Part shown: positions 17,297 to 36,955 of the stretch, piece by piece
Position numbering within the stretch: the first letter of the stretch is position 1
Layout of the letters: each line of letters begins with the position of its first letter
From: Escherichia coli
GTDB lineage: Bacteria > Pseudomonadota > Gammaproteobacteria > Enterobacterales > Enterobacteriaceae
Reading direction: 5' to 3' (one strand)
Length of the DNA: 64,000 nt
NCBI RefSeq assembly: GCF_024223415.1
Contig: NZ_CP100500.1
The notes under the pieces: generated by a model
Told to the model about the DNA's origin: nothing
The model's database searches: none
What the model saw: the letters and a program-made list of their open reading frames with translations, nothing else
Program-made: the position numbers and the translations under genes

Positions 17297-17747
17297 ATCC
17301 CTGAGCACACACATGAGTACAGCGTGCCGGTGGTGCAGGGCCAACCCGGAAAAGTTCACCGTGTTCATTGAACGTGGCGGGATAGAGACCACCGGCGAGA
17401 CGCCGACGTTCGTGTACAACTACCGGCTCGTGATGTTCGTCATGGACTACACGGGCGACCTGGACGACCTGACGCTGCCGCTGATTGTCTGGCTGGCAGA
17501 GAACCAGCCGCAGTTGCTGCTTAATCCTGAGCGCAACGGCGATATTCAGTTCACGGCGGCCATTAACGACGACGACAGTGCGGACGTGCTTTTTGAGGTG
17601 CCGCTGCGCGAGCGCGTGCGCGTCACCCGCAGGGATGACGGCACCCTCACAACGGAACATCTGCCGGAGCCGAAATCGCGCATCCCGCAGGACGGCGACT
17701 GGTCGCACATTCTGGAGGATGTGACGTGGGAGGTGACCGGTGACTGA
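17283..17747 (+). CDS. tail completion protein (P2 gpR-like)
   Basis: Position and size (about 154 aa). Confidence 0.55.
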   Translation: MLKSKSLSTHMSTACRWCRANPEKFTVFIERGGIETTGETPTFVYNYRLVMFVMDYTGDLDDLTLPLIVWLAENQPQLLLNPERNGDIQFTAAINDDDSADVLFEVPLRERVRVTRRDDGTLTTEHLPEPKSRIPQDGDWSHILEDVTWEVTGD

Positions 17748-18381
17748 CAGGGCTTTCACTGAACTGGACCGCACAATGCGGACCATCAGCAGCGGACTTT
17801 CCCCGCAGGCACTGAGCCGCATTGCCGGACAGCTTGCCAGAGAGCTTCGCCGCAGCCAGCAACAGCGTATGCGCGCACAGAAAGCGCCGGACGGTACACA
17901 GTGGGAGCCGCGCAGACGGCGCATCAGCCGCCTGCAGCAGCGTATCCGCTTCATCCGGAACAACGAAACCCGCACGCTGAAAAACTGGCATCACGACGTG
18001 AGCAGACACGGACGCACCATCACCGGCTGGGATGAGGATAAGGGAGGCCTGCGCACCTTCTACCGGGAGGATATCACCCGTTATCTTGAAATCAGCACCC
18101 GGCGCATCAGCCGCAACGCCACAAAGACCGTACCGATGTTTGCGAAGCTGCGCACGGCACGCTACCTGAAAGCCAGAGGCGATGCGGGCGGTCTGACCGT
18201 CGGTTATGACGGCGTGGCGGCACGCATTGCCCGCGTTCACCAGTTCGGGGAGCGCGACCGGGTGGCCGCAGGGGTGTATACGGATTATCCGGCCCGTGAA
18301 CTTCTTGGAATAACACCGGCAGATGAACGGCTGATTGCCGACAGGCTACTGAACCGCATTGCGGGAGAAATATCATCATGA
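17740..18381 (+). CDS. tail completion protein (P2 gpS-like)
   Basis: Position; overlapping start/stop with neighbours. Confidence 0.55.
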   Translation: MTDRAFTELDRTMRTISSGLSPQALSRIAGQLARELRRSQQQRMRAQKAPDGTQWEPRRRRISRLQQRIRFIRNNETRTLKNWHHDVSRHGRTITGWDEDKGGLRTFYREDITRYLEISTRRISRNATKTVPMFAKLRTARYLKARGDAGGLTVGYDGVAARIARVHQFGERDRVAAGVYTDYPARELLGITPADERLIADRLLNRIAGEISS

Positions 18382-18959
18382 ACGCGGAGCTTATGCGCCT
18401 TATCAGCAACATTATCAGAACCGGCGTGATTTTCGACGTGAACCCGCAGACCTGGGAGGTCCGGGTGCGCAGTGGCGGACTGGAGACAGGGTGGCTTCGC
18501 TGGAGCACCGCGCGGGCGGGCGCGTTCAGTGTCTGGGTGCCGCCAGCCACCGGTGAACAGGTGGCGTTCGTCTGTATCGGTGGTAATCCCGAAACCGCGA
18601 TAATCATCGGCAGCCTCTGGAGCGATGATATCCCGGCACCGGGCAGCACACTGAAGGAAATCATCATGACAGCACCGGACGGTGCGGTATTCCGCTACGA
18701 TGCAGACGCCGGTGCACTGGAGGTTAAGGGGATTAAAACAGCCAGCATTCAGGCCGACACGCGCATCACCCTGGACACGCCGGAGGTGGTGTGTACCCGC
18801 AAACTTATCACCGCCACCCTGGAGGTGCAGAACGGCGGCGAGATGCGCGGCAGCATATCCCACAGCGGCGGCAGCCTGACATCCAACGGTATCACCGTTC
18901 ATACGCACACCCACGGTGGCGTCAGGACGGGCCCGGGCACCACGGGAGGCCCGCAATGA
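18378..18959 (+). CDS. baseplate spike/assembly protein (P2 gpV-like, 193 aa)
   Basis: Position; Gly-rich C-terminus; ATGA overlaps. Confidence 0.65.
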   Translation: MNAELMRLISNIIRTGVIFDVNPQTWEVRVRSGGLETGWLRWSTARAGAFSVWVPPATGEQVAFVCIGGNPETAIIIGSLWSDDIPAPGSTLKEIIMTAPDGAVFRYDADAGALEVKGIKTASIQADTRITLDTPEVVCTRKLITATLEVQNGGEMRGSISHSGGSLTSNGITVHTHTHGGVRTGPGTTGGPQ

Positions 18960-19306
18960 CCGCTGTTTACAGGGGGATGAACCCGCAGGGAACCGGCACG
19001 CTGAGCGACAGCGAACACCTGAAAAACAGCGTGCGGGATATCCTGACCACACCGCCAGGCAGCCGGGTGATGCGCCGCGAATACGGCAGCCTGTTACCGG
19101 ACCTCATCGACGAGCCCATGAACGACACCACGCGTTTACAGTGCATGAGCGCCACGGTGACTGCGCTGGCGCGCCATGAACCCCGTATAGCACTGCAGAA
19201 CGTCGATGTGAACTGGCGGGCTGGCGGACGCGCCGTGGTGACGTTATCCGGCATCATCACCGAAACCATGCAGAACATCACATTCAGTATCACCATAAGG
19301 GAGTAA
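18956..19306 (+). CDS. baseplate protein (P2 gpW-like, 116 aa)
   Basis: Position and size. Confidence 0.65.
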   Translation: MTAVYRGMNPQGTGTLSDSEHLKNSVRDILTTPPGSRVMRREYGSLLPDLIDEPMNDTTRLQCMSATVTALARHEPRIALQNVDVNWRAGGRAVVTLSGIITETMQNITFSITIRE

Positions 19307-19309
19307 ATC

Positions 19310-20206
19310 ATGCCTTCCGTTGACCTGTCACAGTTACCGGAACCGGCCATCATCGCGCAGCCGGATTTTGAGTCCATCCTGGCAGACATTAAAACCATGA
19401 TGGTGAGCTCCTTCCCGGAAGAATACCGCGCCGCCGTCACCCGTGCCCTTACTCTGGAATCCGAGCCATTGAACATCATTTCCCAGGCCATGGCCTTTCG
19501 TGAAATGCTGCTTCGCCAGCGCATCAATGAAGCCGCCCGCGCCTGCATGCTCAGCCACAGCCGGGGCAGTGACCTGGACAATCTGGCCGCCAACAACAAC
19601 ACCCGCCGCCTGGTCATTCATCCGGCCACTGATACCACGGAAGCAGTGATGGAAAGCGACACATCGCTGCGTCTGCGTGCCCAGTCAGCCTGGGACGGCC
19701 TGAGTGTGGCCGGACCGTCCGGCGCGTATGAGTATTTTGCCCGGAGCGCAAGCGGTCTTGTCCGTGATGCGCGCGCCATCAGCCCTTCACCGGCCACAGT
19801 CACCGTCTCCATCCTGTCAGCAGACGGTGACGGCACCGCCGGTGAGGCGCTACTGAACACGGTGCGCACCGCCCTGAATGCCGAGAACGTGCGCCCGGTT
19901 GCCGACCGCCTGACTGTGCAGAGTGCTACCATCGTGAACTGGGTAATGGAAGCGAAGCTGTATTTTTATCCAGGGCCGGAGTCTGAACCCATGCTTGCGG
20001 CCGCTGACGCCGCTTTCCGTGCATGGCTGGCAGACCAGGGCCGTATCGGTCAGGACGTGGCCCTGTCAGCCATCACTGCAGCGCTGCATGTTCACGGTGT
20101 CCAGCGCGTTGAGGTCATAAAACCCACGCAGAACATCACCATCAGTGACACTCAGGCAGCCAGATGTACCACATTCAGCATCAGCGAAGGAGGACGCAAT
20201 GAGTGA
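19310..20206 (+). CDS. baseplate protein (P2 gpJ-like, 298 aa)
   Basis: Position and size. Confidence 0.7.
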   Translation: MPSVDLSQLPEPAIIAQPDFESILADIKTMMVSSFPEEYRAAVTRALTLESEPLNIISQAMAFREMLLRQRINEAARACMLSHSRGSDLDNLAANNNTRRLVIHPATDTTEAVMESDTSLRLRAQSAWDGLSVAGPSGAYEYFARSASGLVRDARAISPSPATVTVSILSADGDGTAGEALLNTVRTALNAENVRPVADRLTVQSATIVNWVMEAKLYFYPGPESEPMLAAADAAFRAWLADQGRIGQDVALSAITAALHVHGVQRVEVIKPTQNITISDTQAARCTTFSISEGGRNE

Positions 20207-20762
20207 CAGGAAAAAAACAGACAGCGCACAGCACAGTACATCACTGCTTCCACCGTCCGCAGGGCCATTCATGCGCGCCACAGAGGCGACAGGAGTACGC
20301 ATCAGTACCATACCGGTGGACGCCGACACCCTGTGGTCGCCGGACCGCTGCCCTGCTCACCTCCTGCCCTACCTTGCATGGGCATGTTCCGTTGACAGCT
20401 GGGACCGCAACTGGCCGGAAGAGACCAGGCGACAGGTGATTCGGGACGCATGGATGATACATCGCCACAAAGGGACCATCAGTGCACTCCGCCGCATCGT
20501 TGAACCACTGGGCTACCTCATCCGTGTATCAGAATGGTGGGAGTTTGACGGCTCGCCCGGGACCTTCACCATTGAGATTGGCACACTTGAAACCGGAGTA
20601 AGTGAAGAGCTGCATGAAGAAATGGAGCGTCTGATTGCCGATGCGCGCCCCGTCAGCCGCCACCTCGTGGGGCTTAGTATCATCCAGGAAATACACGGTG
20701 CCATTTACGCCGCTGCCGCAGGTTACGACGGCGACATCATCACCATTTACCCGGAAGACTGA
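20199..20762 (+). CDS. baseplate/tail-fibre-associated protein (P2 gpI-like)
   Basis: Position; start overlaps the gpJ stop. Confidence 0.65.
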   Translation: MSDRKKTDSAQHSTSLLPPSAGPFMRATEATGVRISTIPVDADTLWSPDRCPAHLLPYLAWACSVDSWDRNWPEETRRQVIRDAWMIHRHKGTISALRRIVEPLGYLIRVSEWWEFDGSPGTFTIEIGTLETGVSEELHEEMERLIADARPVSRHLVGLSIIQEIHGAIYAAAAGYDGDIITIYPED

Positions 20763-20765
20763 ACC

Positions 20766-22778
20766 ATGAGCACGAGAAAATTCAGAACCCTTATCACCGA
20801 CATCGGGCTGGCAAAGCTGGCCGCAACAACGGCGCCTGGCGGTAGACCTGTACGCCTTACGCACATGGCTGTAGGGGACGGCAATGGAGAGCTTCGTCAG
20901 CCGCAGAAAAACCAGACATCGCTTTACAATGAGGTTTGGCGCCAGTCTGTCAACCGCGTCTTCACCGACCCGGAGAACCCGAACCGCCTCATCGCCGAAC
21001 TGGTCATTCCTCCTGAAACCGGCGGATTCTGGGTGCGTGAAATTGGTGTGTTTGATGATACAGGTACAATGATTGCAGTAGGAAATACCGCTGAAAGTTA
21101 CAAGCCCACCAGAGAGGAAGGTTCAGGGCGGGCGCAGATATTCCGTGCAGTAATCACCGTCACCTCCGACGCCGTGGTGGAACTGGTCATGGACACAACA
21201 ACAATTCTGCCGACCACGGACTACATTGATGAGAAAATGGCGGAACACGCACGTTCCCGTAACCACCCTGACGCGACACTGACAGAAAAAGGATTCACCC
21301 AACTGAGCAGTGCCACAAACAGCAATTCCGAAACACTGGCGGCCACACCAAGAGCCGTCAAGGCTGCATATGACCTTGCAGCCGGTAAAGCACCCGCCAG
21401 CCACACCCACCCGTGGAATCAGATAACAGGTGTGCCATCAGCCTCGCTGACGGCAAAAGGCACCGTACAGCTGAGCAGTGCCACAAACAGTGAGTCAGAG
21501 ACTGAGGCCGCCACCCCCAAAGCGGTTAAAGCCTTACACGATATGCTGACGAGCAAGTATACAGGACAGGATGCAACCACCGGACGCAAAGGCATCGTGC
21601 AGCTGAGCAGCGCCACAAACAGCAATTCCGAAACGCTGGCGGCCACACCAAGAGCCGTCAAGGCTGCATATGACCTTGCAGCCGGTAAAGCACCCGCCAG
21701 CCACACCCACCCGTGGAATCAGATAACAGGTGTGCCATCAGCCTCGCTGACGGCAAAAGGCACCGTACAGCTGAGCAGTGCCACAAACAGTGAGTCAGAG
21801 ACTGAGGCCGCCACCCCCAAAGCGGTTAAAGCCTTACACGATATGCTGACGAGCAAGTATACAGGACAGGATGCAACCACCGGACGCAAAGGCATCGTGC
21901 AGCTGAGCAGCGCCACAAACAGCAATTCCGAAACGCTGGCGGCCACACCAAGAGCCGTCAAGGCTGCATATGACCTTGCAGCCGGTAAAGCACCCGCCAG
22001 CCACACCCATCCGTGGAATCAGATAACAGGTGTTCCATCAGCCTCGCTGACGGCAAAAGGTACCGTACAGCTTAGCAGTGCCACAAACAGCAATTCCGAA
22101 ACGCTGGCGGCCACACCAAGAGCTGTTAAAGCTGCGTATGACCTTGCCAACAGCAAAGCCGCGGCAGCCCACACTCATCGCTGGGCTCAGATCACAGACG
22201 CCCCTGTTTTTTCGTCTGTTGCCCGCGTCATCATGGGTAAACAAAGCATAAAAGATATTCTTGATTACCTTGGTTTAGGAGAAGGCTCGACGCTGCCAGT
22301 TGGCGTACCCGTTCCGTGGCCTTCGTCAAGACCACCTGAAGGGTGGTTACAGTGCAATGGTGCCGCATTCACGCGTACAAAATACCCAAAACTGGCAGTG
22401 GCCTACCCTGACCTAAGGCTACCAGATTTGCGCGGGGAATTTATTCGTGGATGGGATGACCTGCGAATGATTGACAGGGGACGCTTATTGTTATCCACAC
22501 AGGAAGCAACATATATTTGTACCGCCATACAGGCGTACCACGGCGTAGCGGGAGGTGCAGATATTCAGGCAGGGATTTCATTTGCATCACATGATAACGA
22601 CATCATAAACATAACCCCTGATCAACCCAGAACCGGTAACGGCATCCTGTACGGCAGAAAACCAGTTGACAGATGGGCAATAGCCAGAGCCGGTAAGCTG
22701 GTGAGTAATGAAAAAGACAGATGGATAGCGATCAGACCGCGCAATATCGCTTTTAATTATATTGTGAGGGCAGTTTAA
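20766..22778 (+). CDS. tail fibre protein (P2 gpH-like, 670 aa) with internally repeated shaft
   Basis: Repeated QLSSATNSxSETxAATPxAVKA motifs and a distinct C-terminal domain. Confidence 0.8.
   Translation: MSTRKFRTLITDIGLAKLAATTAPGGRPVRLTHMAVGDGNGELRQPQKNQTSLYNEVWRQSVNRVFTDPENPNRLIAELVIPPETGGFWVREIGVFDDTGTMIAVGNTAESYKPTREEGSGRAQIFRAVITVTSDAVVELVMDTTTILPTTDYIDEKMAEHARSRNHPDATLTEKGFTQLSSATNSNSETLAATPRAVKAAYDLAAGKAPASHTHPWNQITGVPSASLTAKGTVQLSSATNSESETEAATPKAVKALHDMLTSKYTGQDATTGRKGIVQLSSATNSNSETLAATPRAVKAAYDLAAGKAPASHTHPWNQITGVPSASLTAKGTVQLSSATNSESETEAATPKAVKALHDMLTSKYTGQDATTGRKGIVQLSSATNSNSETLAATPRAVKAAYDLAAGKAPASHTHPWNQITGVPSASLTAKGTVQLSSATNSNSETLAATPRAVKAAYDLANSKAAAAHTHRWAQITDAPVFSSVARVIMGKQSIKDILDYLGLGEGSTLPVGVPVPWPSSRPPEGWLQCNGAAFTRTKYPKLAVAYPDLRLPDLRGEFIRGWDDLRMIDRGRLLLSTQEATYICTAIQAYHGVAGGADIQAGISFASHDNDIINITPDQPRTGNGILYGRKPVDRWAIARAGKLVSNEKDRWIAIRPRNIAFNYIVRAV
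21296..22140 (+). repeat. near-perfect 300-bp tandem repeats (about 2.8 copies) inside tail-fibre gene H
   Basis: 21421-21600 is identical to 21721-21900 and 21601-21720 is identical to 21901-22020 as printed; in-frame (100 aa per unit). Confidence 0.85.
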
Positions 22779-23389
22779 TGAGTAACACTGCAGTTCTGGA
22801 TGAAAACGGTATCGCCACTTTCGCAGGCGATATCACTGTATATCACTATGATGAGGAAACCCGGGAATACACCTCATCCTCTGTGGAGTATCTGGCCCTG
22901 GGGGTGGGTACCCCGGCACATTCATGCGCCGATGCCCCGCCAGAGGCAATGCCGGGTTACGTGATTTGCCGGACGTCCACGCTGGACGGGTGGGAGTATG
23001 TCCCCGATCATCGTGGAGAGACGGTATACAGCACAGAGAACGGTAATCCGGTCCAGATTACCCAACCAGGTGACTACCCGGAAGGGACAACGACAAAACA
23101 GCCTGCCACACCATGGGATACCTGGAACGGTGAGGCGTGGGTAACCGATACAGAACGGCAGCAAGCCGAAGAGCTGGAGGTTACCAGACAGCAACGCCAG
23201 GAACGGGTGGATCAGGCGATGAAGTCCATCGACCTCATCAACCTTAAGTTGCGGGCAGGTCGCAGTCTGACACCAGAAGAAACGGCAAAACTGAATGCCG
23301 TGCTGGATTATATCGACGAGCTGAACGCACTGGATATCAGCACGGGGCCTGAAATAACCTGGCCGGAAACACCACCAGGAATGGAATGA
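22778..23389 (+). CDS. tail fibre assembly chaperone (P2 gpG-like, 203 aa)
   Basis: Position immediately after H with overlapping stop/start. Confidence 0.6.
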   Translation: MSNTAVLDENGIATFAGDITVYHYDEETREYTSSSVEYLALGVGTPAHSCADAPPEAMPGYVICRTSTLDGWEYVPDHRGETVYSTENGNPVQITQPGDYPEGTTTKQPATPWDTWNGEAWVTDTERQQAEELEVTRQQRQERVDQAMKSIDLINLKLRAGRSLTPEETAKLNAVLDYIDELNALDISTGPEITWPETPPGME

Positions 23390-23459
23390 GCGGGGAAAAG
23401 GAACGGGCATTCATAAATAATTCATCATGCAGGTGCCGCAAGAATGCGGCACATTACCT

Positions 23460-23948
23460 TCACATCAGATCATTTACGCCGCTTACTGTGGTATTCCAGA
23501 CCGAACTTAACTTCCCTTTCATTCCCGAAAGCATATCAGACACCGGCGACGAGGCCATACTCTCCCGCAAATCCTCATCACAGCGTTCCAGACTGACAGT
23601 GAACTCAATTTTTTTGGCCTTACCGTGGCGGTCAAGTTCGCTTCGCGTTGTGCGGACAGCCGTTATCACATACATGCCGTATATCTGCCCCACACCGTCA
23701 ATCAGCGGCCATGGGCGACCAGTGTAAGCCTGCGTCGTTAAAAGGCTGAGGGAAACCTCACCGCCGGTAATTTCGGGATAAAGCACACCGGACAACGTGA
23801 TCTGGTCGTCACCCGCCCCGATATACTGCCAGCTGGCCGAACGATTGATGCGTTCATTTTTAACGTGGCGCCAGGTTTTATTATGTTGCAGTTGTTGATG
23901 AGGCAGCGTACGCAACTCAAAAACAAACATGCCGTAAATCATCATCAT
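23460..23948 (-). CDS. tail protein U (P2 gpU-like, 162 aa)
   Basis: MMMIYGMFVFELRT...WRH...NRS...TLSGVL...TGG closely resembles the P2 gpU N-terminus. Confidence 0.75.
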   Translation of the reverse strand: MMMIYGMFVFELRTLPHQQLQHNKTWRHVKNERINRSASWQYIGAGDDQITLSGVLYPEITGGEVSLSLLTTQAYTGRPWPLIDGVGQIYGMYVITAVRTTRSELDRHGKAKKIEFTVSLERCDEDLRESMASSPVSDMLSGMKGKLSSVWNTTVSGVNDLM

Positions 23949-23959
23949 GCGAGGTACTC

Positions 23960-26900
23960 CTAATCTCTGTCACGGAAACTACCGACTGTCTGGCGGATAC
24001 GGCGTTCCATTTCCGCACGGACGGCATCACCCACCATTTTTGCCAGTTCGCGCGGGTTTTGCGTGTGAACATCATGCAGGTGAATATGCAGTTCGCCAGT
24101 TAATCCCCATGGTGCCGGATCACTCTGACGCGGTCGGGGCGATGCGGGGGATATGGGCTGGCGTACAGCCTCAACCACCGGACGGGATGTTGCCGTTACG
24201 ACGGGTGTCATTACCGGCGCAATATTGCCGGACACGACCGGTTTAATTACCGGGGAGAGCGTCGGTATAACATCGCCAGCCATAACCGGTTTGATCGCTG
24301 GCGAAATAACCGGAGCAACAGACTCAGCCATGACGGAACTGACAGGCTGAGGCGCTCTCACTATGCCAGCATCGATAACCAGCATGAGCTCGCGTACTGC
24401 CTCAAGGACAGGACGGGATATTGCCGCCATCACTGGTGTCATTAGCGGGGAGAACGTCGGCATGACATCGTGAGTCATAACCGGTTTGATCACCGGCGAA
24501 ACCACCGGCGTAATATTACCGGACAGTACCGGACGGACGACCGGAGGAATAACCGGCACATTATTCACGGACACCACCGGCTTCACGACCGGCGACACGT
24601 TCGCCGTGGTGGATATCAGCGGCGAAACACTGACAGGCGGTGGCGCTGGCAGCGGTGGCAACGAAGGCACACTGACCGACGGCACCTGCGGCAGTCTGAC
24701 AGGTGGCTCACTGACACTACCCGGTAACAGGGAAGCTGCGCGGTTAAAGCGTTCCTCCTTCCACTCACCACGAACGGCCAGCGCTTCCGGCAGGTTTTTA
24801 AAGATAATATCGCCGGGACCAGTGCGTTTTTTCGCCTGTTTCGCCTCATCCAGCAGACCACCGGTGTTATCGACGATTTTGTTCAGGCGGCGCATAGTGC
24901 CGGTATTCTCCCCCGTCAGGGGTGGTTGCCCCCCTTTGGGTTTTTCGCCGTCTTTTTTATCCTCGTCCTTTTTCGGCGGATTAATGACGTTAACATCCGC
25001 CAGAAGCATGGCAGCTTTCTCGTTCAGCAACTCCTTCTGTTTTAGTTCTTCCGCCTTTTTCCGGGCGCGCTCAACCGCCGACGGAATCAGCCCGAGTTTT
25101 TCCAGCACCCGGGTTAATGAGTCAATCAGCAGCGTAACCGGACCGGTCACCAGATTGCTGATAAACTCCCCGACCTTCTGCCCGAACGTACGCCCGGCTT
25201 CCGTGCACTTGTCCAGCTCATCCTTTGTTGTGCTTACCGGCGCGAACAAATCCACGAACCACTGCCACACACGCCCGATTGTCTGCCCGACATACTCAAA
25301 CAGCGGTCCCAGTGGTGCCACAGCCTCGCGCAGTGGCGTAAGCCCCTGCCACAGGCCGGACAAGAACCCGCCCACGACAGCCTTCAGCTGGTCCCAGTGC
25401 CGCCAGATAAGCACTGCCGCACCGACCAGTGTCGCCACCACAAGGCCCACCGGACTTAACAGAAAACCCAGCGCCCCGCCAAGTGCGCCCACCGCACCAC
25501 TCACCATCCCCCACAGTGCGGGCAGACCTGACAGTCTGAGCGCCAGTATTCCGATACCGCGCCCCAGTGAAATCAGTGCGCCGCCAGGTGAAGTGAACGC
25601 AGCCAGCAGACCACCACGCAGCGTACCGAGTAGTCCGCGCACGCCACGAAGCCGGACCGCAAGCCGTCCCGCACCGGTATCAAGACCGGCAAACAGCACA
25701 CGCCAGCCGCCAATACCACTCATCGACCCACCGAGTACGCCGCGCAGCTGCGTCAGTAACGGCAGCGCACGACCGAGGCCGGATGTGCCGGTCAGCAGGG
25801 CAAAACCAAGACGCAGTTTTGCCAGCGGCCCCAGCAACACGCCGGTAGCCAGTGACAGCGCCCCCGTGGCCGCAACCGCAGCCAGCAGTGCACCACCGGC
25901 AATCAGCAGTTGTTTTGTCAGTTCAGGGTGCGCCTGAGCCAGCGCGGTGACTTTCGCAATAACCCGGGTGAACGACTGCGTGACAGAACGCAGCGGCCCG
26001 TCAACGAGGTCAGCGACACGGATACGCAGCCCTTCCCATGCGCTGTTCAGTGATTTCAGGTCGCCGTCCAGGTTGTCCGCCATGATTCTGGCGTTTTCTT
26101 CCAGTTCGCCGTTGGCTGCCTGAATCTCACGCGTCAGGCGCGGCAGGTTTTTTTCGCCTGCCTGTTCAACCAGGCTCATCAGGGAGACATACGCCTCCTG
26201 ACCGGCAATATCTGAAAAGAACGAGACTTTTGCCGCGTTACCGTATTTACGGGTGGCCTGATACAGCTCATACAGGATATCTTCCATCGGGCGCATGTTC
26301 CCGTAAGCATCCTGCGTTTCCACGCCCAGCTGTTTCAGCGCCTTTGCTGCCGCTTTAGGCGGGTTCACAAGGCGGGACAGACTGGAGCGCAGCGCCGTAC
26401 CAGCATCACTGCCACGTATCCCCATCGACCCAAGCAACCCGGTCATGGCTGCGGTCTGTTCAAGAGACAGACCGAGTGAGGCGGCGACCGGTCCCGTATA
26501 TTTCATCGTCTCACCAAGCCCGCGCAGGTCGGTATTGGTGCGGGTGAACGTTGCGGCCAGCGTGTCACCCACGCGGTTCATCTGGTCGGCAGACAACCCG
26601 AACTGTGTAAGGATATTTGAGCTGATATCGGCCGTCTGACCGAGGTCCATGCCGCTGGCCGTTGCCAGATTCAGCACGCCGGGAAGAGCCGCCTGTATCG
26701 CCTGCGGCGTGAACCCCGCCATGGCAAGGAACGCCTGACCGCTGGCAGCATCACCTGCGGTAAACTGCGTTTCGGAGCCGAGTTTAAGCGCCTGTTCGCG
26801 CAGCGCCTTAAACTGCGGACTGTTTTTGTCAATACGGGTCAGCGCCTGGACGCGCGACATCTCCTTACCAAAACTGACCGCCGGTTGCAGGAAACGCCCG

Positions 26901-27517
26901 GCCGCATAGCCACCTGCCGCTGCCGTGCCGACTGCCGTAAATCCACCCGCTTTCAGTTTTCCCGCCATCTCCTGAGCGCGGAAATATTGCTGGCGTGCCT
27001 GCGTGACGCGTGCCAGAGTCTGCCGTTCACGTTCCAGCTGTTCGTTGTATTGCTGTGTTCGCCGTATGGCCTGTTGAATGGTGTTGTCACTGCCGGAAAG
27101 CGCAATACCGTGACGCCGCAGCTCACCACCCAGTTCGCGCATTCGCTGAACTTCACGCGCACGGACCTCATTGAGACGCTCAAGTTTGAGGCTCAAATCG
27201 TTCATCAGCTTTTTCTGTTTGTCAGACAGCACGGTTCCGGCGCGCTGAATTTGCTGAAGTGCGCTTAACTGGCGTTGTGCCCGGGCAATGCCGTTTCCGG
27301 CCTTGTTTGCAGCCTCGCGGGCGCGATCAAATGAACGGGCGTGGCGTTCCAGGTTTTTGATCGCACCCTGCGTTCTCTGTATGGAGTCGCCAAGCTGGCC
27401 CATCATGCGACGGGCGTTTTCGGTGGGACGGGTCAGCCTGTCAACAGCGCTGAAGGCGACCCGTATATCAAGCGTTTTCATGCTCTGCGTTCCCGCTGCG
27501 AAGGGCCGCCCGCTCAC
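23960..27517 (-). CDS. tail tape measure protein (P2 gpT-like, 1185 aa) with C-terminal Pro/Val-rich repeat extension
   Basis: Long helical/Gly-rich ORF between E and U; C-terminal about 200 aa made of PVxxP-type repeats. Confidence 0.85.
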   Translation of the reverse strand: MSGRPFAAGTQSMKTLDIRVAFSAVDRLTRPTENARRMMGQLGDSIQRTQGAIKNLERHARSFDRAREAANKAGNGIARAQRQLSALQQIQRAGTVLSDKQKKLMNDLSLKLERLNEVRAREVQRMRELGGELRRHGIALSGSDNTIQQAIRRTQQYNEQLERERQTLARVTQARQQYFRAQEMAGKLKAGGFTAVGTAAAGGYAAGRFLQPAVSFGKEMSRVQALTRIDKNSPQFKALREQALKLGSETQFTAGDAASGQAFLAMAGFTPQAIQAALPGVLNLATASGMDLGQTADISSNILTQFGLSADQMNRVGDTLAATFTRTNTDLRGLGETMKYTGPVAASLGLSLEQTAAMTGLLGSMGIRGSDAGTALRSSLSRLVNPPKAAAKALKQLGVETQDAYGNMRPMEDILYELYQATRKYGNAAKVSFFSDIAGQEAYVSLMSLVEQAGEKNLPRLTREIQAANGELEENARIMADNLDGDLKSLNSAWEGLRIRVADLVDGPLRSVTQSFTRVIAKVTALAQAHPELTKQLLIAGGALLAAVAATGALSLATGVLLGPLAKLRLGFALLTGTSGLGRALPLLTQLRGVLGGSMSGIGGWRVLFAGLDTGAGRLAVRLRGVRGLLGTLRGGLLAAFTSPGGALISLGRGIGILALRLSGLPALWGMVSGAVGALGGALGFLLSPVGLVVATLVGAAVLIWRHWDQLKAVVGGFLSGLWQGLTPLREAVAPLGPLFEYVGQTIGRVWQWFVDLFAPVSTTKDELDKCTEAGRTFGQKVGEFISNLVTGPVTLLIDSLTRVLEKLGLIPSAVERARKKAEELKQKELLNEKAAMLLADVNVINPPKKDEDKKDGEKPKGGQPPLTGENTGTMRRLNKIVDNTGGLLDEAKQAKKRTGPGDIIFKNLPEALAVRGEWKEERFNRAASLLPGSVSEPPVRLPQVPSVSVPSLPPLPAPPPVSVSPLISTTANVSPVVKPVVSVNNVPVIPPVVRPVLSGNITPVVSPVIKPVMTHDVMPTFSPLMTPVMAAISRPVLEAVRELMLVIDAGIVRAPQPVSSVMAESVAPVISPAIKPVMAGDVIPTLSPVIKPVVSGNIAPVMTPVVTATSRPVVEAVRQPISPASPRPRQSDPAPWGLTGELHIHLHDVHTQNPRELAKMVGDAVRAEMERRIRQTVGSFRDRD

Positions 27518-27631
27518 GCCAGGCGACCACCTCGCCGGGATCCATCAGGAAGATTTCAGCGGGAGACCAGTTGAAAATAACGGCGATATCCGCCACAAAG
27601 TCTTCAATATGCTCAAAGGGCACGACGGTTA

Positions 27632-27994
27632 TCAGCCTGCCGTCGCCGCCACGCTCTTCCCGCCAGAGTCCTGACCGGCCAAAAAATTAACCGCCACCCC
27701 GCACAGCTGAATAAAATCAGCGGACCCCATGCGCTTAAGCAGAACCTCGTCCAGTCGCGGCGAAGTGACGCGCGGGAGTAACTCAAACATCGCGTCCGTT
27801 TTCATGTTCAGCACGTCAAGCAGTGACAGCCCGCGCAGTGAACCGGCCTGCTGTACAGCAGGCGTGATTTCCACATACGTGATTTTTTTGTTACCGAGCA
27901 CAAGGGGCGTTTTCAGCGTCACGCCGCGCTCACTGGTCACGTCCGCCGCATCAGCACCGTCAGTAACAGGGGCAACAACCGGATTTTCTTTCAT
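27632..27994 (-). CDS. tail assembly chaperone (P2 gpE-like); E' presumably made by -1 frameshift
   Basis: Position between tail tube and tape measure genes; TTTTTTG heptamer near the 3' end. Confidence 0.65.
   Translation of the reverse strand: MKENPVVAPVTDGADAADVTSERGVTLKTPLVLGNKKITYVEITPAVQQAGSLRGLSLLDVLNMKTDAMFELLPRVTSPRLDEVLLKRMGSADFIQLCGVAVNFLAGQDSGGKSVAATAG
27680..27686 (-). other. slippery heptamer T_TTT_TTG for programmed -1 frameshift (E/E' chaperone)
   Basis: Reverse complement of CAAAAAA at 27680-27686 lies in-frame at ...NFLAGQ... near the end of gpE. Confidence 0.55.
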
Positions 27995-28044
27995 GCATAA
28001 AACCTCAAATCAGGGGGCGACGCCACGCGCCGCCGTGGAAAACA

Positions 28045-28563
28045 TTAACCACCAAGACCAATCGCCGAGCGCACGCGGTCCGGGAAGACGCTTTTGCCGT
28101 CCTTGCGTTCGATGTGGTTCAGTAAATCAATCTCCAGCACCGGACGGTCGTTAATGCTGAGTTTGTAGTAGGTACTTTTGACCGCATAGGTGTGAGACGT
28201 GACCTCACCCTGTTTGGCCTCCCCGGTATCAATTTCCGTCACGCGACCGCGAAGCTCAATCTCGTACAGGTCACTCTGTTCTTCATCGTTGTAGTACTCA
28301 CCGACAAAGCGCAGCAGCGTACCGTCAATCGTTCCGCCGTACTTGAGGAACAGTTCGCGGGTCGGCCCGCCCATGGTGAAACTCGCATCCAGCGCGCCGT
28401 CATCCAGGCCAAGGTCGATATTTACTGCACCGGCCATACCACCACCGCGATAGGCTTCCGTTTTACGGGTCAGTTTGGGGGCCGTGAAGCCGGTCACTCT
28501 GCCAATCTGGTTCACCCCGTCAGTAAACAGCGTGAACACCCTGAGATTTTTTGGTACGGCCAT
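28045..28563 (-). CDS. tail tube protein (P2 gpFII-like, 172 aa)
   Basis: Position and size downstream of sheath gene. Confidence 0.75.
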   Translation of the reverse strand: MAVPKNLRVFTLFTDGVNQIGRVTGFTAPKLTRKTEAYRGGGMAGAVNIDLGLDDGALDASFTMGGPTRELFLKYGGTIDGTLLRFVGEYYNDEEQSDLYEIELRGRVTEIDTGEAKQGEVTSHTYAVKSTYYKLSINDRPVLEIDLLNHIERKDGKSVFPDRVRSAIGLGG

Positions 28564-29846
28564 TAAGCACCTCCAAGCGTCGCAAATGCAGGACCAAAGA
28601 ATTCATCAGTAAACGTCTGGTAAAGTTCCATATCCTCAAGCGGCGGAACGGGCGTGTACTTGTAGCGGATACGCACGCGTCCCTGACGAAGTTCCGTGGT
28701 GCTGTTATCCACCACGTCATACCAGCACTCCGCACCAACGAGACGTCCTGACGTAACCAGCGCATCCAGTTTTGCGCGAATTGCGCTTAACACGTCTTTC
28801 ACATTAGCAGGGGTCAGCGGGGCATCAATCGTTTCAAACTGCGCTTCCGCAACAGAATCAGCCAGCACCTGAGCGGTTCGCGTGTACACCTCAAAGATAT
28901 ACGCCTTCGTTTCCGGCGTACGGTTGCCCCAGAAGCGGAAACCGTTACGGCGAATGATGGTGGTGATTTCCTTGTTGTTGAGATTGTTGGCATCGCTGTC
29001 TTCGGACTGAAGGGACCAGAACACCGGGCTGGAAATACCCAGCACATTTCTTACCGGCACGTTGGACAGCGATTTATGCCAGCCCTGTTCGTGGTCAATA
29101 CGTGCACGTAAACCGCAGGCGTACGCCGCAGCCGGGAAGACCTCATTAGCGCCGGATTTCGGGTTATGGGCGATGAAGTCAGGCCAGAGCAGCATAAGTT
29201 CGCGCTCGTTAAATCTGGCGCGGTAGCTGATTGCATCAGCGGGCTTCTTGCAGTTGTGACAGCCCGCGTAGACAAATGCGCGAAGTTTTTCTGCAATTAC
29301 ACACAGGGATTTTGTGACAGCTTCAGTATCCAGTCCGGGAGCTGCGATGATGCGCGGACGGTAACCGATGGCATCATCCTGTTCAGCTATCAGAAGTGCA
29401 TACATACCGGTATAATTACCGTCGCCATCCGTGCCACCAATGACATACTGGTCCTGCGTTTTGTGTGGGTATACAGGATGTGCATCTTCAGACTCATCAA
29501 TACCAAAAAATGCCCTGTCTTCAGGATCCAGATGACCGAATGATGTAACTCCTGTATCCGGGGCGCCCTGAGAACTGGCATCAGGAACGCGCACCACAAT
29601 CACCTTCGTGCTCACCTGGTCGGCGACAGCCTTAAGCGATTTGTAAAGCGTCCCCTTTGTGCCGGCCTTACCCAGCACATCACTGACGCGGGTCAGCAGT
29701 GTGGGTTTGTTCAGCGGGAACAGAGTTTCATCCGCGTCATCTGCCGTAGCCACAATACCAATAACACTGGAATCCACATCATTAATGGCGGTGGCAAGGC
29801 CGGTACTTTCCCTTACGCGCGCACCATGAAAGCGTGTTTCACTCAT
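28563..29846 (-). CDS. tail sheath protein (P2 gpFI-like; start at MSETRFHGARV)
   Basis: N-terminal region resembles the P2 FI N-terminus (HG..V.E...G......A.VG...TA.DAD...FPLNKP). Confidence 0.8.
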   Translation of the reverse strand: MSETRFHGARVRESTGLATAINDVDSSVIGIVATADDADETLFPLNKPTLLTRVSDVLGKAGTKGTLYKSLKAVADQVSTKVIVVRVPDASSQGAPDTGVTSFGHLDPEDRAFFGIDESEDAHPVYPHKTQDQYVIGGTDGDGNYTGMYALLIAEQDDAIGYRPRIIAAPGLDTEAVTKSLCVIAEKLRAFVYAGCHNCKKPADAISYRARFNERELMLLWPDFIAHNPKSGANEVFPAAAYACGLRARIDHEQGWHKSLSNVPVRNVLGISSPVFWSLQSEDSDANNLNNKEITTIIRRNGFRFWGNRTPETKAYIFEVYTRTAQVLADSVAEAQFETIDAPLTPANVKDVLSAIRAKLDALVTSGRLVGAECWYDVVDNSTTELRQGRVRIRYKYTPVPPLEDMELYQTFTDEFFGPAFATLGGA

Positions 29847-29922
29847 ATGTTTCACCCTTGTCTGGCTGGTTGATTTTGCGTAATCATTACCCACACACGC
29901 GGTAATCTCACCCCTTTGATGT

Positions 29923-29940
29923 TGTCTCCTGACAGCGACA
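29923..29940. promoter_or_regulatory. TGT-N12-ACA dyad (candidate Ogr site) between divergent FI and D genes
   Basis: TGTctcctgacagcgACA lies about 55 bp from plausible start sites for both FI (minus) and D (plus). Confidence 0.4.
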
Positions 29941-30007
29941 ACAAAACAGCCATTCAACGCCGCTACGGTGCATGAAACCATTACAGAACGCACCAGGAGA
30001 GAACACC

Positions 30008-31142: not shown

Positions 31143-31394
31143 ATGTTCCGTTGTCCCCTGTGCGGTGCATCCGCACGTATCCGCACCAGTCGCAATGAAA
31201 ATGATTCAGGCACAGTTCGCCTGAAGTACTACCAGTGCAATAACCTCGAATGCGGGATCGGCTTTACCACACTGGAGGGTTTTAACAAATTCACATCAAA
31301 ACGCGCCCCGTCGCCGCAGGGTACAGAGCGGATACCGTGGGAAGATTTTCCGGGATCTCACAGGGGGAATGCTCAGATGAATCTTGATATTTAA
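31143..31394 (+). CDS. ogr: Ogr/Delta-family zinc-finger late transcription activator
   Basis: MFRCPLCGASARIRTSR...YYQCNNLECGIGF carries the CxxC...CxxC finger and N-terminal similarity to P2 Ogr. Confidence 0.85.
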   Translation: MFRCPLCGASARIRTSRNENDSGTVRLKYYQCNNLECGIGFTTLEGFNKFTSKRAPSPQGTERIPWEDFPGSHRGNAQMNLDI

Positions 31395-31399
31395 GAACA

Positions 31400-32405
31400 A
31401 TAATCAGGTTGAGAGGACATCATAAGGCAAGTAGATTAACGGCAGATACTTTCCCGCAACCACGGGCAAGTATTTAATTATCCATGATGAAATATGACCT
31501 AAATTGTTTTTTGCCCGCCGGAAAGCGGGCATTTTTTTATTCTTTTGTGGTTATGGGGTCATCAGGAACCACGTGCAGATTATATTTTTGTTTTTTTGGC
31601 GTTCCTCCGGCAGCAACGAGTTCATCAATAAGACACTGACACGCCTGAACATCCCGGGCATGTCTTAGTTTCACCTTTATTGATTTAACCTTATCCTCAC
31701 CGGAGGAGAAATGCAGTTCAATCTCAATATCGTTTCTTCGGAACAATCTCATACGCCCCCCTGAATATATCAGAAATGCTAGTATCGAAAAATGAGAAAA
31801 CAGTTAGACAGGAGAAACATATTAACACAAATCATTTATACCTATAGATGAAATTATAATTTCATTCATGAATATGATAGATAACTATATTGTGAACAAA
31901 ATGAAAAATGGCTAAATTAAAAATGGGCATGGAGGAATGCCTCGTAATCAGTAATACATGATCCATACTTCCTTGTTTTGCCCGCCGGAAAGCGGGCATT
32001 TTTTTGGCGGTTACCATCGCCTCACCTTCCTGGTTCACACAAAGCAACCCTGATTTTCCATGAAAACTTCAGGGTTGAGCCAAAAGCACAAAGACAGTAG
32101 ATTAACCAAGGGTACCCGCCACCTGCCAACAGGAACGGTATCCAGTACGTATTAATGACTGACAATTCACATTGCTGTTTTGCCCGCCAGAAGGTGGGCA
32201 TTTTTTTGGCAGTTATCATGGACGCACCTTCATGACACATATTAAGCAGACCTGATTTTTCCATGAAAAATTCATGGTTGAGACAAAAGCACAAAAACAG
32301 TAGATTAACCACGGGTGCCTGCCACCTGACAACAGGAAGGGGTGTCCATTATCCATGATATACAAACGAAAAGTCTTGTCTTTTGCCCGCCGTTGCGCGG
32401 GCTTT
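31400..32405 (+). repeat. array of four related modules, each a promoter-like TTGAGA/TTGTGA-N17-TAGATT/TAAATT plus an intrinsic terminator (GCCCGCC...GCGGGC + T-run)
   Basis: Terminator hairpins at about 31512, 31978, 32181 and 32384; units 32000-32200 and 32200-32405 are about 200-bp paralogues sharing sequence with the unit just after ogr. Confidence 0.6.
31537..31752 (-). CDS. hypothetical small protein (71 aa) inside the repeat/att region
   Basis: ORF with weak G-rich Shine-Dalgarno; may be a remnant. Confidence 0.25.
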   Translation of the reverse strand: MRLFRRNDIEIELHFSSGEDKVKSIKVKLRHARDVQACQCLIDELVAAGGTPKKQKYNLHVVPDDPITTKE

Positions 32406-32659: not shown

Positions 32660-32819
32660 CATCAACACCCCCTCCCTTCGGTTCGTTGCACTGGCAGCAC
32701 GATACCACCAGGAAAAAGAAAAGCCCACAACGTCAGGATTGCGGGCTTTTTTTCTTCAAAAATGGACACTACGTGGACACTGATTAAATAATCCTTTCTT
32801 AATCAGACTGTTAAAATGC

Positions 32820-36200: not shown

Positions 36201-36955
<755 letters not shown>

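What the first reader, a model, noticed from the sequence alone, without database searches (positions are those of the whole stretch)
21296..22140. Recent in-frame 300-bp tandem duplication in tail fibre gene H
Two full and one partial 300-bp units are almost identical at the DNA level, encoding repeated QLSSATNSxSETLAATPRAVKA and QLSSATNSESETEAATPKAVKA modules in the fibre shaft. Such perfect repeats are recombinogenic and imply recent expansion, likely varying fibre length and possibly host range between isolates.
Basis: seen in the sequence. Interest (0 to 1): 0.45.

Follow-up and report, generated by a model that had tools for sequence, protein, structure and literature searches.

The report
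Tail-fibre shaft module duplication in prophage
The tail-fibre gene of a P2-like prophage in E. coli carries a real, very young in-frame 300-bp tandem duplication that adds two repeat modules to the fibre shaft; this is one ordinary instance of a widespread module-number polymorphism in this gene family.

Summary
Gene H (20766-22778, +, 670 aa) of a P2-like E. coli prophage holds a 300-bp tandem array (TRF 21303-22090, 2.6 copies, 98%). The shaft reads A-B-A-B-A-a', built from 56-aa 'A' and 44-aa 'B' Phage_fiber_2 modules.

B1 and B2 are identical (0/132 nt). The middle A module is an exact chimera: the 5' part of A3 joined to the 3' part of A1. That is the footprint of a single unequal exchange between A1 and A3 of an A-B-A-a' ancestor, with no substitutions since.

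Alleles of the ancestral type (570 aa) exist. So do at least 17 other module orders (570-856 aa) in E. coli prophages. These share near-identical baseplate-binding N-termini and receptor-binding C-termini.

A second 670-aa allele, from a metagenome, is a chimera of its own flanking modules. The same duplication therefore probably arose at least twice.

An effect on host range is untested, and the receptor-binding tip is unchanged.

In-frame tail-fibre duplications and motif-mediated shuffling are already known (T4 gp37, EfV12-phi1, Sandmeier 1994). This is a new member of a known kind and of modest interest.

The parts
20766..22778 (+). Tail fibre gene H (670 aa), intact ORF containing the repeat array
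   Evidence: ORF list. Pfam PF12571 + 6x PF03406 + PF07484. 100% identical to P0029 = WP_254539326.1 'tail fiber protein [E. coli]'.
20766..21290 (+). N-terminal domain (aa 1-175), baseplate attachment part
   Evidence: PF12571 Phage_tail_fib aa 4-151, E 4.7e-50. Median 99.4% identical across 120 relatives. The attachment role is inferred by analogy with the Mu gp49 N-terminus docking on the wedge (PMC11915804).
21291..21458 (+). Module A1 (56 aa; Phage_fiber_2 repeat plus HTH His-x-His motif)
   Evidence: Module parsing. Differs from A2 only at nt 3, 4, 7, 8, 9, 12, 21 and 45.
21459..21590 (+). Module B1 (44 aa; Phage_fiber_2 repeat, SESETEAATPKAVKALHDML type)
   Evidence: Identical to B2 (0/132).
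21591..21758 (+). Module A2, the recombinant junction copy: A3 nt 1-119 joined to A1 nt 46-168
   Evidence: Matches A3 at all 8 diagnostic 5' sites and A1 at both diagnostic 3' sites (120, 144). No private differences.
21759..21890 (+). Module B2, exact copy of B1
   Evidence: 0/132 differences.
21891..22058 (+). Module A3
   Evidence: Differs from A2 at nt 120 and 144 only.
22059..22226 (+). Terminal module a' (A4; diverged A-type, AHTHRW)
   Evidence: 47-52 of 168 nt differ from A1-A3. Present as the last module in 119 of 120 relatives.
21336..22009 (+). The exact duplicated tract: 21336-21709 is identical to 21636-22009 (374 bp at lag 300)
22227..22775 (+). C-terminal collar / receptor-binding region (aa 488-670), not affected by the duplication
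   Evidence: PF07484 Collar aa 513-560. Matches the T4 gp37 tip 2XGF collar (E 2e-12) and its C-terminal NIAFNYIVR strand. Median 99.5% identical across relatives.
22778..23389 (+). Tail fibre assembly protein (gpG/Tfa-like)
   Evidence: PF02413 Caudo_TAP, E 9e-27.
20199..20762 (+). Baseplate protein I (187 aa if started at the ATG used in RefSeq relatives; the mechanical ORF starts at 20145)
   Evidence: PF09684 Tail_P2_I, E 1.8e-47. A 564-nt gene is annotated in relatives.
19310..20206 (+). Baseplate protein J
   Evidence: PF04865 Baseplate_J.

Best explanation
The shaft of this trimeric P2-type tail fibre is an array of Phage_fiber_2 modules. An allele of the form A-B-A-a' (predicted 570 aa) underwent one unequal homologous exchange, or a replication slippage. 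The exchange was between its first and second A modules. These lie 300 bp apart and are 158/168 identical, with a 74-bp perfectly identical stretch at module positions 46-119.

The product is A-B-[A3/A1 chimera]-B-A-a'. This is an in-frame insertion of exactly 300 bp (100 aa), that is one A module plus one B module. No substitution has accumulated since, so the event is young.

Inferred consequence: each of the three chains gains 100 residues of shaft, including one more His-x-His motif. The fibre is therefore longer. By analogy with the R-pyocin shaft, where 70 aa span about 93 Å, the gain is of the order of 10 nm. The baseplate-binding N-terminus and the receptor-binding C-terminus are unchanged.

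The same process, acting between any of the modules, generates the extensive module-number and module-order polymorphism seen in this gene family in E. coli. All modules share a conserved 23-33 nt 5' core.

What is shown: the repeat, its exact anatomy, the chimeric junction, and the polymorphism. What is inferred: the molecular route (RecA-dependent, phage recombinase or slippage), the physical lengthening, and any effect on adsorption.
For: - Array and reading frame.
- Module-level DNA comparison: B1 = B2 at 0/132. A1 vs A2 differ at 8 sites, all at or before nt 45. A2 vs A3 differ at 2 sites, both at or after nt 120. A1 vs A3 differences are the union of those 10 sites. This is exactly what one crossover in the 46-119 interval predicts.
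- Unduplicated A-B-A-a' alleles of 570 aa exist in 7 of the 120 top 90%-identity clusters. The closest at DNA level differ from the predicted ancestor at 15/1713 nt. The closest at protein level differs at 5 aa (P0027).
- A second 670-aa allele (metagenome scaffold L005/P0036) has B1 = B2. Its A2 is an exact chimera of its own A1 and A3, with crossover interval 64-93. It carries lineage-specific variants at paralogous positions. Its predicted ancestor is nearest a different 570-aa allele (P0040, 3 aa) than the window's.
- A third allele (P0002, 845 aa) has an exact 152-aa repeat at lag 100.
- There are 16 architectures in 120 clusters, plus two 626-aa forms in complete genomes. Up to 7 architectures share identical N-terminal 175 aa and C-terminal 183 aa.
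- Fibre identity and context.
- HxH motifs coordinate Fe in trimeric fibre shafts; shaft length per residue: PMC6116203.
Against: - The exact predicted 570-aa ancestor is absent from a 15-billion-protein collection and from 5,426 complete E. coli genomes.
- This allele is on record from a single 5.56-Mb contig, and no read data could be examined.
- Identity between copies could in principle be maintained by gene conversion rather than reflect youth.
- With only 300 bp per copy, the dating has little power. If the duplication were as old as the split from the nearest 570-aa alleles (0.88% divergence), about 2.6 differences would be expected, giving P(0) of about 0.07.
- No structural or adsorption data bear on the inferred lengthening.
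Confidence: 0.85

Rival explanations
1. Assembly artefact: the true gene has one (or some other number of) A-B unit, and the assembler mis-resolved a 300-bp repeat.
For: The exact 374-bp repeat exceeds typical short-read length. The allele is recorded from one contig only. No reads are available here.
Against: - The source contig is a 5.56-Mb chromosome-scale assembly.
- The ORF stays in frame. The junction copy is a clean biological chimera that retains diagnostic SNPs from both parents, which a spurious duplication of one unit would not create in this pattern.
- An independent metagenome assembly has the same architecture on a different sequence background.
- Repeats are usually collapsed rather than expanded in assemblies (general knowledge).
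Confidence: 0.05
2. The A-B-A-B-A array is old, and its copies are kept identical by intragenic gene conversion (concerted evolution). The identity then does not indicate a recent expansion.
For: In both 670-aa alleles, lineage-specific variants appear at paralogous positions of two copies (module positions 9 and 138). Conversion could also produce this. Module shuffling shows that recombination among modules is frequent.
Against: - The 670-aa architecture is rare (2 of 120 clusters), whereas A-B-A-a' occurs in 7.
- Identity is a single uninterrupted 374-bp tract with one breakpoint interval, not a patchwork.
- Each 670-aa allele's predicted ancestor is closest to a different extant 570-aa allele. 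Two independent duplications explain this more simply.
Confidence: 0.08
3. The duplicated block did not arise in this prophage. It was imported by homologous recombination with another H allele, for example from a co-resident related prophage.
For: A 744-aa H allele (P0093) is reported on a contig of the same length, 5,559,392 bp, as the one carrying this allele. The same genome may therefore hold two related prophages. Tail-fibre genes are known mosaics (Sandmeier 1994, cited in PMC8986868).
Against: - A2 is an exact chimera of this allele's own A1 and A3.
- P0093's B modules read LHDMV and its A modules differ (SDTNS..., PKAVK) from the window's, so it is not the donor.
- No identical block was found in 5,426 complete genomes.
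Confidence: 0.04

Closest known systems
Phage P2 gpH / Mu gpS-type tail fibres with Phage_fiber_2 (PF03406) repeats
   Same: Same domain order: Phage_tail_fib N-terminus, Phage_fiber_2 repeats and a C-terminal receptor-binding part, followed by a Caudo_TAP assembly gene. The repeat motif aligns to Mu S residues 110-149 (5YVQ/8JU3).
   Different: The C-terminus is a short T4-gp37-like collar/tip (2XGF, E 2e-12) rather than the Mu S tip. The sheath-tube-tape-measure-U block lies on the opposite strand, convergent with H-G. From my own knowledge, canonical P2 has all of these on one strand. No close match in the phage collection: best hits are 80-82% identity over 23-42% of the gene.
T4 gp37 adhesin duplications (Tetart et al. 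1996, J Mol Biol 258:726; cited in PMC3157838)
   Same: In-frame duplication of a small fibre segment by recombination between short conserved motifs. The A module also carries a His-x-His 'His box'-like motif.
   Different: In T4 the duplications lie in the receptor-binding tip and were shown to expand host range. Here the duplication lies in the shaft, and the tip is unchanged. In the second 670-aa allele the crossover interval (module nt 64-93) excludes the HTH codons (nt 112-120). The exchange is therefore not at the His box in that allele.
Enterococcus phage EfV12-phi1 tail-fibre tandem duplications (PMC6365445)
   Same: In-frame tandem duplications inside a long tail-fibre gene, upstream of the binding domain, with variable copy number.
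   Different: The unit there is 1.8 kb. It arose under experimental coevolution, copy-number heterogeneity was shown by long reads, and it occurred in a lytic phage. Here the unit is 300 bp in a prophage, and heterogeneity is untested.
Motif-mediated rearrangement of tail-fibre genes (Sandmeier 1994, Mol Microbiol 12:343; reference verified in PMC8986868)
   Same: Short conserved sequence motifs repeated within fibre genes serve as sites for rearrangement and module exchange.
   Different: That work concerned exchange between unrelated phages. Here the shuffling is within one closely related prophage family, and the exact breakpoint of one event can be read.

Membership tests
P2 gpH-type tail fibre | N-terminal Phage_tail_fib (PF12571) domain | tested here: met
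   aa 4-151, E 4.7e-50, 169.9 bits against a cut-off of 23.
P2 gpH-type tail fibre | Phage_fiber_2 (PF03406) repeats in the shaft | tested here: met
   6 stretches, E 4.1e-107, 350 bits against a cut-off of 22.
P2 gpH-type tail fibre | Synteny: baseplate J, I upstream and a tail-fibre assembly gene immediately downstream | tested here: met
   Baseplate_J, Tail_P2_I and Caudo_TAP flank the gene. Relatives are annotated the same way.
P2 gpH-type tail fibre | Homotrimeric fibre folded with help of the assembly protein and present on virions | not testable with these tools
   Needs expression or EM. Only monomer prediction was available, and it was not run.
Tandem duplication by unequal homologous exchange | Head-to-tail copies in register, with period a multiple of 3 and the ORF intact | tested here: met
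   Period 300, no indels, 670-aa ORF.
Tandem duplication by unequal homologous exchange | The junction copy is a chimera of the two parental repeats with a single breakpoint interval | tested here: met
   A2 = A3[1-119] + A1[46-168]. All 10 diagnostic sites are consistent.
Tandem duplication by unequal homologous exchange | Existence of the unduplicated allele | tested here: inconclusive
   The architecture A-B-A-a' (570 aa) exists in 7 clusters. The exact predicted ancestor is absent. The nearest allele is 15/1713 nt away.
Tandem duplication by unequal homologous exchange | Copy-number heterogeneity in the population or in reads | not testable with these tools
   No read data. The predicted 3-copy (770 aa) protein is not in the collection.
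T4 gp37-type host-range duplication (Tetart 1996) | Duplication lies in the receptor-binding tip | tested here: not met
   The duplication covers aa 176-375 of the shaft. The collar/tip (aa 488-670) is unchanged and about 99.5% conserved across alleles.
T4 gp37-type host-range duplication (Tetart 1996) | Altered host range | not testable with these tools
   Needs adsorption or plaque assays.
Invertible-segment fibre switching (Mu G / P1 C type) | Inverted repeats flanking alternative fibre C-termini, plus an invertase | tested here: not met
   Only weak 18-27 nt, 70-84% inverted matches in 19000-25000. A single H-G pair is followed directly by gpU on the other strand.

The most novel reading that the evidence does not exclude
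The Phage_fiber_2 array of this prophage family may act as a fast 'length accordion', in effect a contingency locus. The same A-B unit would be gained and lost recurrently at appreciable frequency. Lysates would then contain a mixture of fibre lengths, and selection would match fibre reach to the thickness of the host's O-antigen or capsule layer. Three results are compatible with this: apparent independent origins of the same duplication in two backgrounds, a third lag-100 duplication in P0002, and up to seven architectures on identical flanks. They do not show it.
Probability: 0.15. Interest if true: 0.55.

Novelty: new member of a known kind. Interest (0 to 1): 0.3.

Why it matters
It gives a clean, base-resolved example of how tail-fibre shafts grow: one unequal exchange between repeat modules, with the breakpoint interval readable. 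It also shows that in one E. coli prophage family the shaft changes architecture faster than its end domains change sequence.

That is useful for people engineering fibre or tailocin length, and for annotation and assembly quality control of repeat-bearing fibre genes. It does not reveal a new mechanism. If fibre length were shown to tune adsorption through O-antigen or capsule layers, the locus would become a convenient natural series (570 to 856 aa with the same tip) to test that.

Tried and rejected
- **Source contig look-up.** Exact-sequence look-up of the contigs encoding P0029 and the co-resident P0093 returned nothing on record. The source genome and its possible second prophage could not be read.
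- **Predicted ancestor and 3-copy form.** The predicted 570-aa ancestor and the predicted 3-copy 770-aa protein are not in the 15-billion collection. The predicted ancestor DNA has no full-length match in 5,426 complete genomes.
- **Phage collection.** Only two partial hits at 80-82% identity, so there is no characterised phage reference.
- **PDB sequence search.** It covers only the collar (2XGF, 9CUY) and one repeat motif of Mu S. No solved structure of an A-B unit was found, so physical length per module is only an analogy.
- **RBPseg fibre atlas paper.** It has nothing on repeats or duplication.
- **Invertible-segment idea.** Rejected, because no meaningful inverted repeats were found.
- **Reverse-strand ORFs.** The 95-aa ORFs at 21419-21706 and 21719-22006 are identical by-products of the repeat inside a well-supported gene. 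I did not treat them as genes.
- **Structure prediction.** Not run: only single-chain prediction was available, and it is uninformative for an interdigitated trimeric shaft.

Full report

Yes. Tandem Repeats Finder finds one strong array in the region: 21303-22090, period 300, 2.6 copies, 98% matches, no indels, score 1534. It is by far the strongest tandem repeat in the 64-kb window. An ungapped repeat search puts three in-register 300-nt copies at 21288, 21588 and 21888, at 100%, 97% and 79%.

A lag-300 self-comparison shows an exact 374-bp run, 21336-21709 = 21636-22009. The conserved 23-nt module core occurs six times in the window, all within this gene, against zero in 100 shuffles. The array lies in a single intact ORF, 20766-22778 (+), 670 aa.

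**2. What is the gene, and where is it?**

- The product has a Phage_tail_fib N-terminal domain (E 4.7e-50), six Phage_fiber_2 repeats (E 4.1e-107) and a Collar domain.
- Upstream are Baseplate_J and Tail_P2_I genes. Immediately downstream is a Caudo_TAP fibre assembly gene.
- Next come gpU, a 1185-aa tape measure, tube and sheath on the opposite strand, then gpD.
- Further left are gpA replication, portal and terminase genes.
- The chromosomal part of the window is 100% identical to E. coli ybaL-fsr.
- Comparison with E. coli GF60 shows a P2-like prophage inserted between glsA and copA. It is collinear and 98.6-98.9% identical to the window over about 34 kb. The window starts about 2.3 kb inside the prophage's left end, and the right end is near 32819.
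- The C-terminal 160 residues resemble the collar and closing strand of the T4 gp37 tip (2XGF, E 2e-12). The repeat motif aligns to Mu fibre protein S residues 110-149.

**3. Anatomy of the array**

Splitting the protein at the conserved G-x-x-Q-L-S start gives six modules.

| Module | Window coordinates | Length | Notes |
|---|---|---|---|
| A1 | 21291-21458 | 56 aa | contains SHTHPW |
| B1 | 21459-21590 | 44 aa | |
| A2 | 21591-21758 | 56 aa | chimeric junction copy |
| B2 | 21759-21890 | 44 aa | |
| A3 | 21891-22058 | 56 aa | |
| a' (A4) | 22059-22226 | 56 aa | diverged A-type; 47-52/168 nt from A1-A3 |

At DNA level:

- B1 = B2, with 0 of 132 nt different.
- A1 and A2 differ at 8 sites, all at or before nt 45 (positions 3, 4, 7, 8, 9, 12, 21, 45).
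- A2 and A3 differ at 2 sites, both at or after nt 120 (positions 120, 144).
- A1 and A3 differ at exactly the union of these ten sites.

A2 is therefore A3[1-119] joined to A1[46-168], with no private change. This is the footprint expected from one unequal exchange, or a slippage, between A1 and A3 of an A-B-A-a' gene. The breakpoint lies somewhere in the 74-bp stretch (nt 46-119) where the two are identical. The product gains exactly 300 bp, which is 100 aa, or one A plus one B module.

**4. Relatives**

The allele itself is on record as WP_254539326.1 / UTJ25409.1, on a 5.56-Mb E. coli contig. It is absent from 5,426 complete RefSeq E. coli genomes.

Among the 120 best 90%-identity clusters there are 16 shaft architectures, spanning 570-856 aa and 4 to 9 modules.

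| Length | Architecture | Clusters |
|---|---|---|
| 570 aa | A-B-A-a' | 7 |
| 670 aa | A-B-A-B-A-a' | 2 |
| 682 aa | two forms | 3 |
| 744 aa | A-B-C-A-B-a' (dominant) | 54 |
| 756 aa | two forms | 25 |
| 768 aa | A-A-C-A-A-a' | 1 |
| 778 aa | A-A-B-C-A-A-a' | 1 |
| 800 aa | two forms | 4 |
| 812 aa | three forms | 21 |
| 845 aa | A-A-B-A-B-A-B-A + different C-terminus | 1 |
| 856 aa | A-B-C-A-B-A-A-a' | 1 |

- One 744-aa cluster alone, P0078, is seen on 444 contigs.
- Two further 626-aa orders, A-A-B-A-a' and A-B-A-A-a', occur in complete genomes.
- The N-terminal 175 aa and C-terminal 183 aa have median identities of 99.4% and 99.5% across these proteins.
- Up to seven architectures share identical N- and C-terminal sequences.

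The shaft array therefore turns over faster than the end domains accumulate substitutions. Fibre length does vary between isolates.

**5. One event or several?**

A second 670-aa allele comes from a metagenome scaffold (L005/P0036). It has the same order and B1 = B2. Its A2 is an exact chimera of its own A1 and A3, with breakpoint interval 64-93. It differs from the window allele at paralogous positions in both copies (module positions 9 and 138).

The two predicted ancestors differ by 10 aa. Each is closer to a different extant 570-aa allele: the window's to P0027 (5 aa), and the metagenome's to P0040 (3 aa). Two independent duplications explain this most simply. One event followed by gene conversion is the alternative.

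A third allele, P0002, carries an exact 152-aa repeat at lag 100, with a different C-terminal domain. Other exact repeats occur at lag 56 (A-A duplications) and lag 230 (the A-B...A-B of the common 744-aa form).

**6. How young is it?**

There are no differences between the copies apart from those inherited from the parental modules. The nearest 570-aa alleles differ from the predicted ancestor at 15/1713 nt. At that divergence about 2.6 differences would be expected per 300 bp, giving P(0) of about 0.07. The duplication is thus probably younger than that split, but the statistical power is low. The exact ancestor and a 3-copy form are not in the protein collection.

**7. How it most likely works**

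Shown:
- The repeat and its anatomy.
- The single-breakpoint chimera.
- The polymorphism in the family.

Inferred:
- Exchange between misaligned A modules during replication or recombination. Whether this involved RecA, a phage recombinase or slippage cannot be told.
- Each chain of the trimer gains 100 shaft residues, including one more His-x-His motif. Such motifs from three chains coordinate Fe(II) in pyocin, T4 gp37 and P2 gpV fibres (PMC6116203).
- The fibre is longer by roughly 10 nm, if the density is like the pyocin shaft (70 aa for about 93 Å).
- The receptor-binding tip is unchanged. Any effect would come through reach or flexibility, not specificity.

**8. Comparison with what is known**

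- In-frame tandem duplications in tail-fibre genes are documented. These include 1.8-kb units in Enterococcus phage EfV12-phi1 arising under coevolution (PMC6365445) and small-domain duplications in T4 gp37 that expand host range (Tetart 1996, cited in PMC3157838).
- Rearrangement at conserved fibre motifs was described by Sandmeier (1994; reference seen in PMC8986868).
- This case differs in lying in the shaft rather than the tip. In the second allele, the breakpoint excludes the His-x-His codons.
- There is no invertible-segment system here.

It is a new member of a known kind.

**9. Rivals**

- An assembly artefact is unlikely but not excluded without reads. The source is a chromosome-scale contig. 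The junction is a biologically coherent chimera. An independent assembly shows the same architecture.
- Concerted evolution of an old array is less parsimonious, given the rarity of the architecture and the single breakpoint.
- Import from a co-resident prophage is not supported. That prophage's H allele (P0093) has different modules.

**10. Verdict**

The finding is biologically tidy but ordinary.

Noticed in passing
window 31974-32391: A second tandem repeat: period 203, about 2 copies, 78-84% identical. It lies in the non-coding right end of the prophage, between the ogr-like gene (31143-31394) and the core-genome junction near 32819, upstream of copA. Each copy starts with a terminator-like GCCCGCC(A/G)GAA(A/G)G(C/T)GGGCATTTTTTT hairpin. 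The same region is 99.9% identical in E. coli GF60. It could be a duplicated attachment or terminator region.
   Followed up: partly
window 23960-27517 (-): The tape measure gene is an intact 1185-aa ORF here. In the RefSeq relatives GF60, SCU-115 and ECCNB12-2 the orthologous gene is annotated as an incomplete pseudogene, and in L006 it is 1173 aa. Its C-terminal Pro/Val-rich part contains a diverged internal duplication (24153-24217 ~ 24384-24448 at 80%; 24237-24352 ~ 24432-24547 at 72%).
   Followed up: partly
window 23460-29993 (-) versus 17740-23389 (+): The sheath, tube, tape measure and gpU genes are on the opposite strand, convergent with the V-W-J-I-H-G block, and gpD is back on the + strand. 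From my own knowledge, canonical P2 has all of these in one direction, so this prophage family has an inverted tail module.
   Followed up: no
relatives L003/L004 (aa 276-405 of the 744-aa H) and P0078: The most common allele of this family carries a 130-aa 'C' module. This is a Phage_fiber_2 start followed by a roughly 100-aa non-repeat insertion (…KAVSDALSMAFVKPTT…GAWGFCQHEYTSWDPPRKF…). It looks like a globular knob in the shaft. It is absent from the window allele, and its function is unknown.
   Followed up: no
Homologous-protein table: P0028, P0078, P0079, P0087, P0094, P0096, P0102, P0116: Several of these tail-fibre proteins are named 'short-chain fatty acid transporter' in NCBI or UniRef. 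This is evidently a propagated annotation error.
   Followed up: no
P0029 and P0093: A 744-aa H allele (P0093) is listed on a contig of exactly the same length (5,559,392 bp) as the one carrying the window's 670-aa allele. The source genome therefore probably holds two related P2-like prophages. This could not be read.
   Followed up: partly
window 36201-36923 (+): An IS-type transposase ORF (rve integrase core, HTH_21) lies about 0.8 kb downstream of copA, outside the prophage.
   Followed up: no
window 21419-21706 (-) and 21719-22006 (-): Two identical 95-aa reverse-strand ORFs are created by the repeat. They are mechanical by-products inside a well-supported gene and were not treated as genes.
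   Followed up: no
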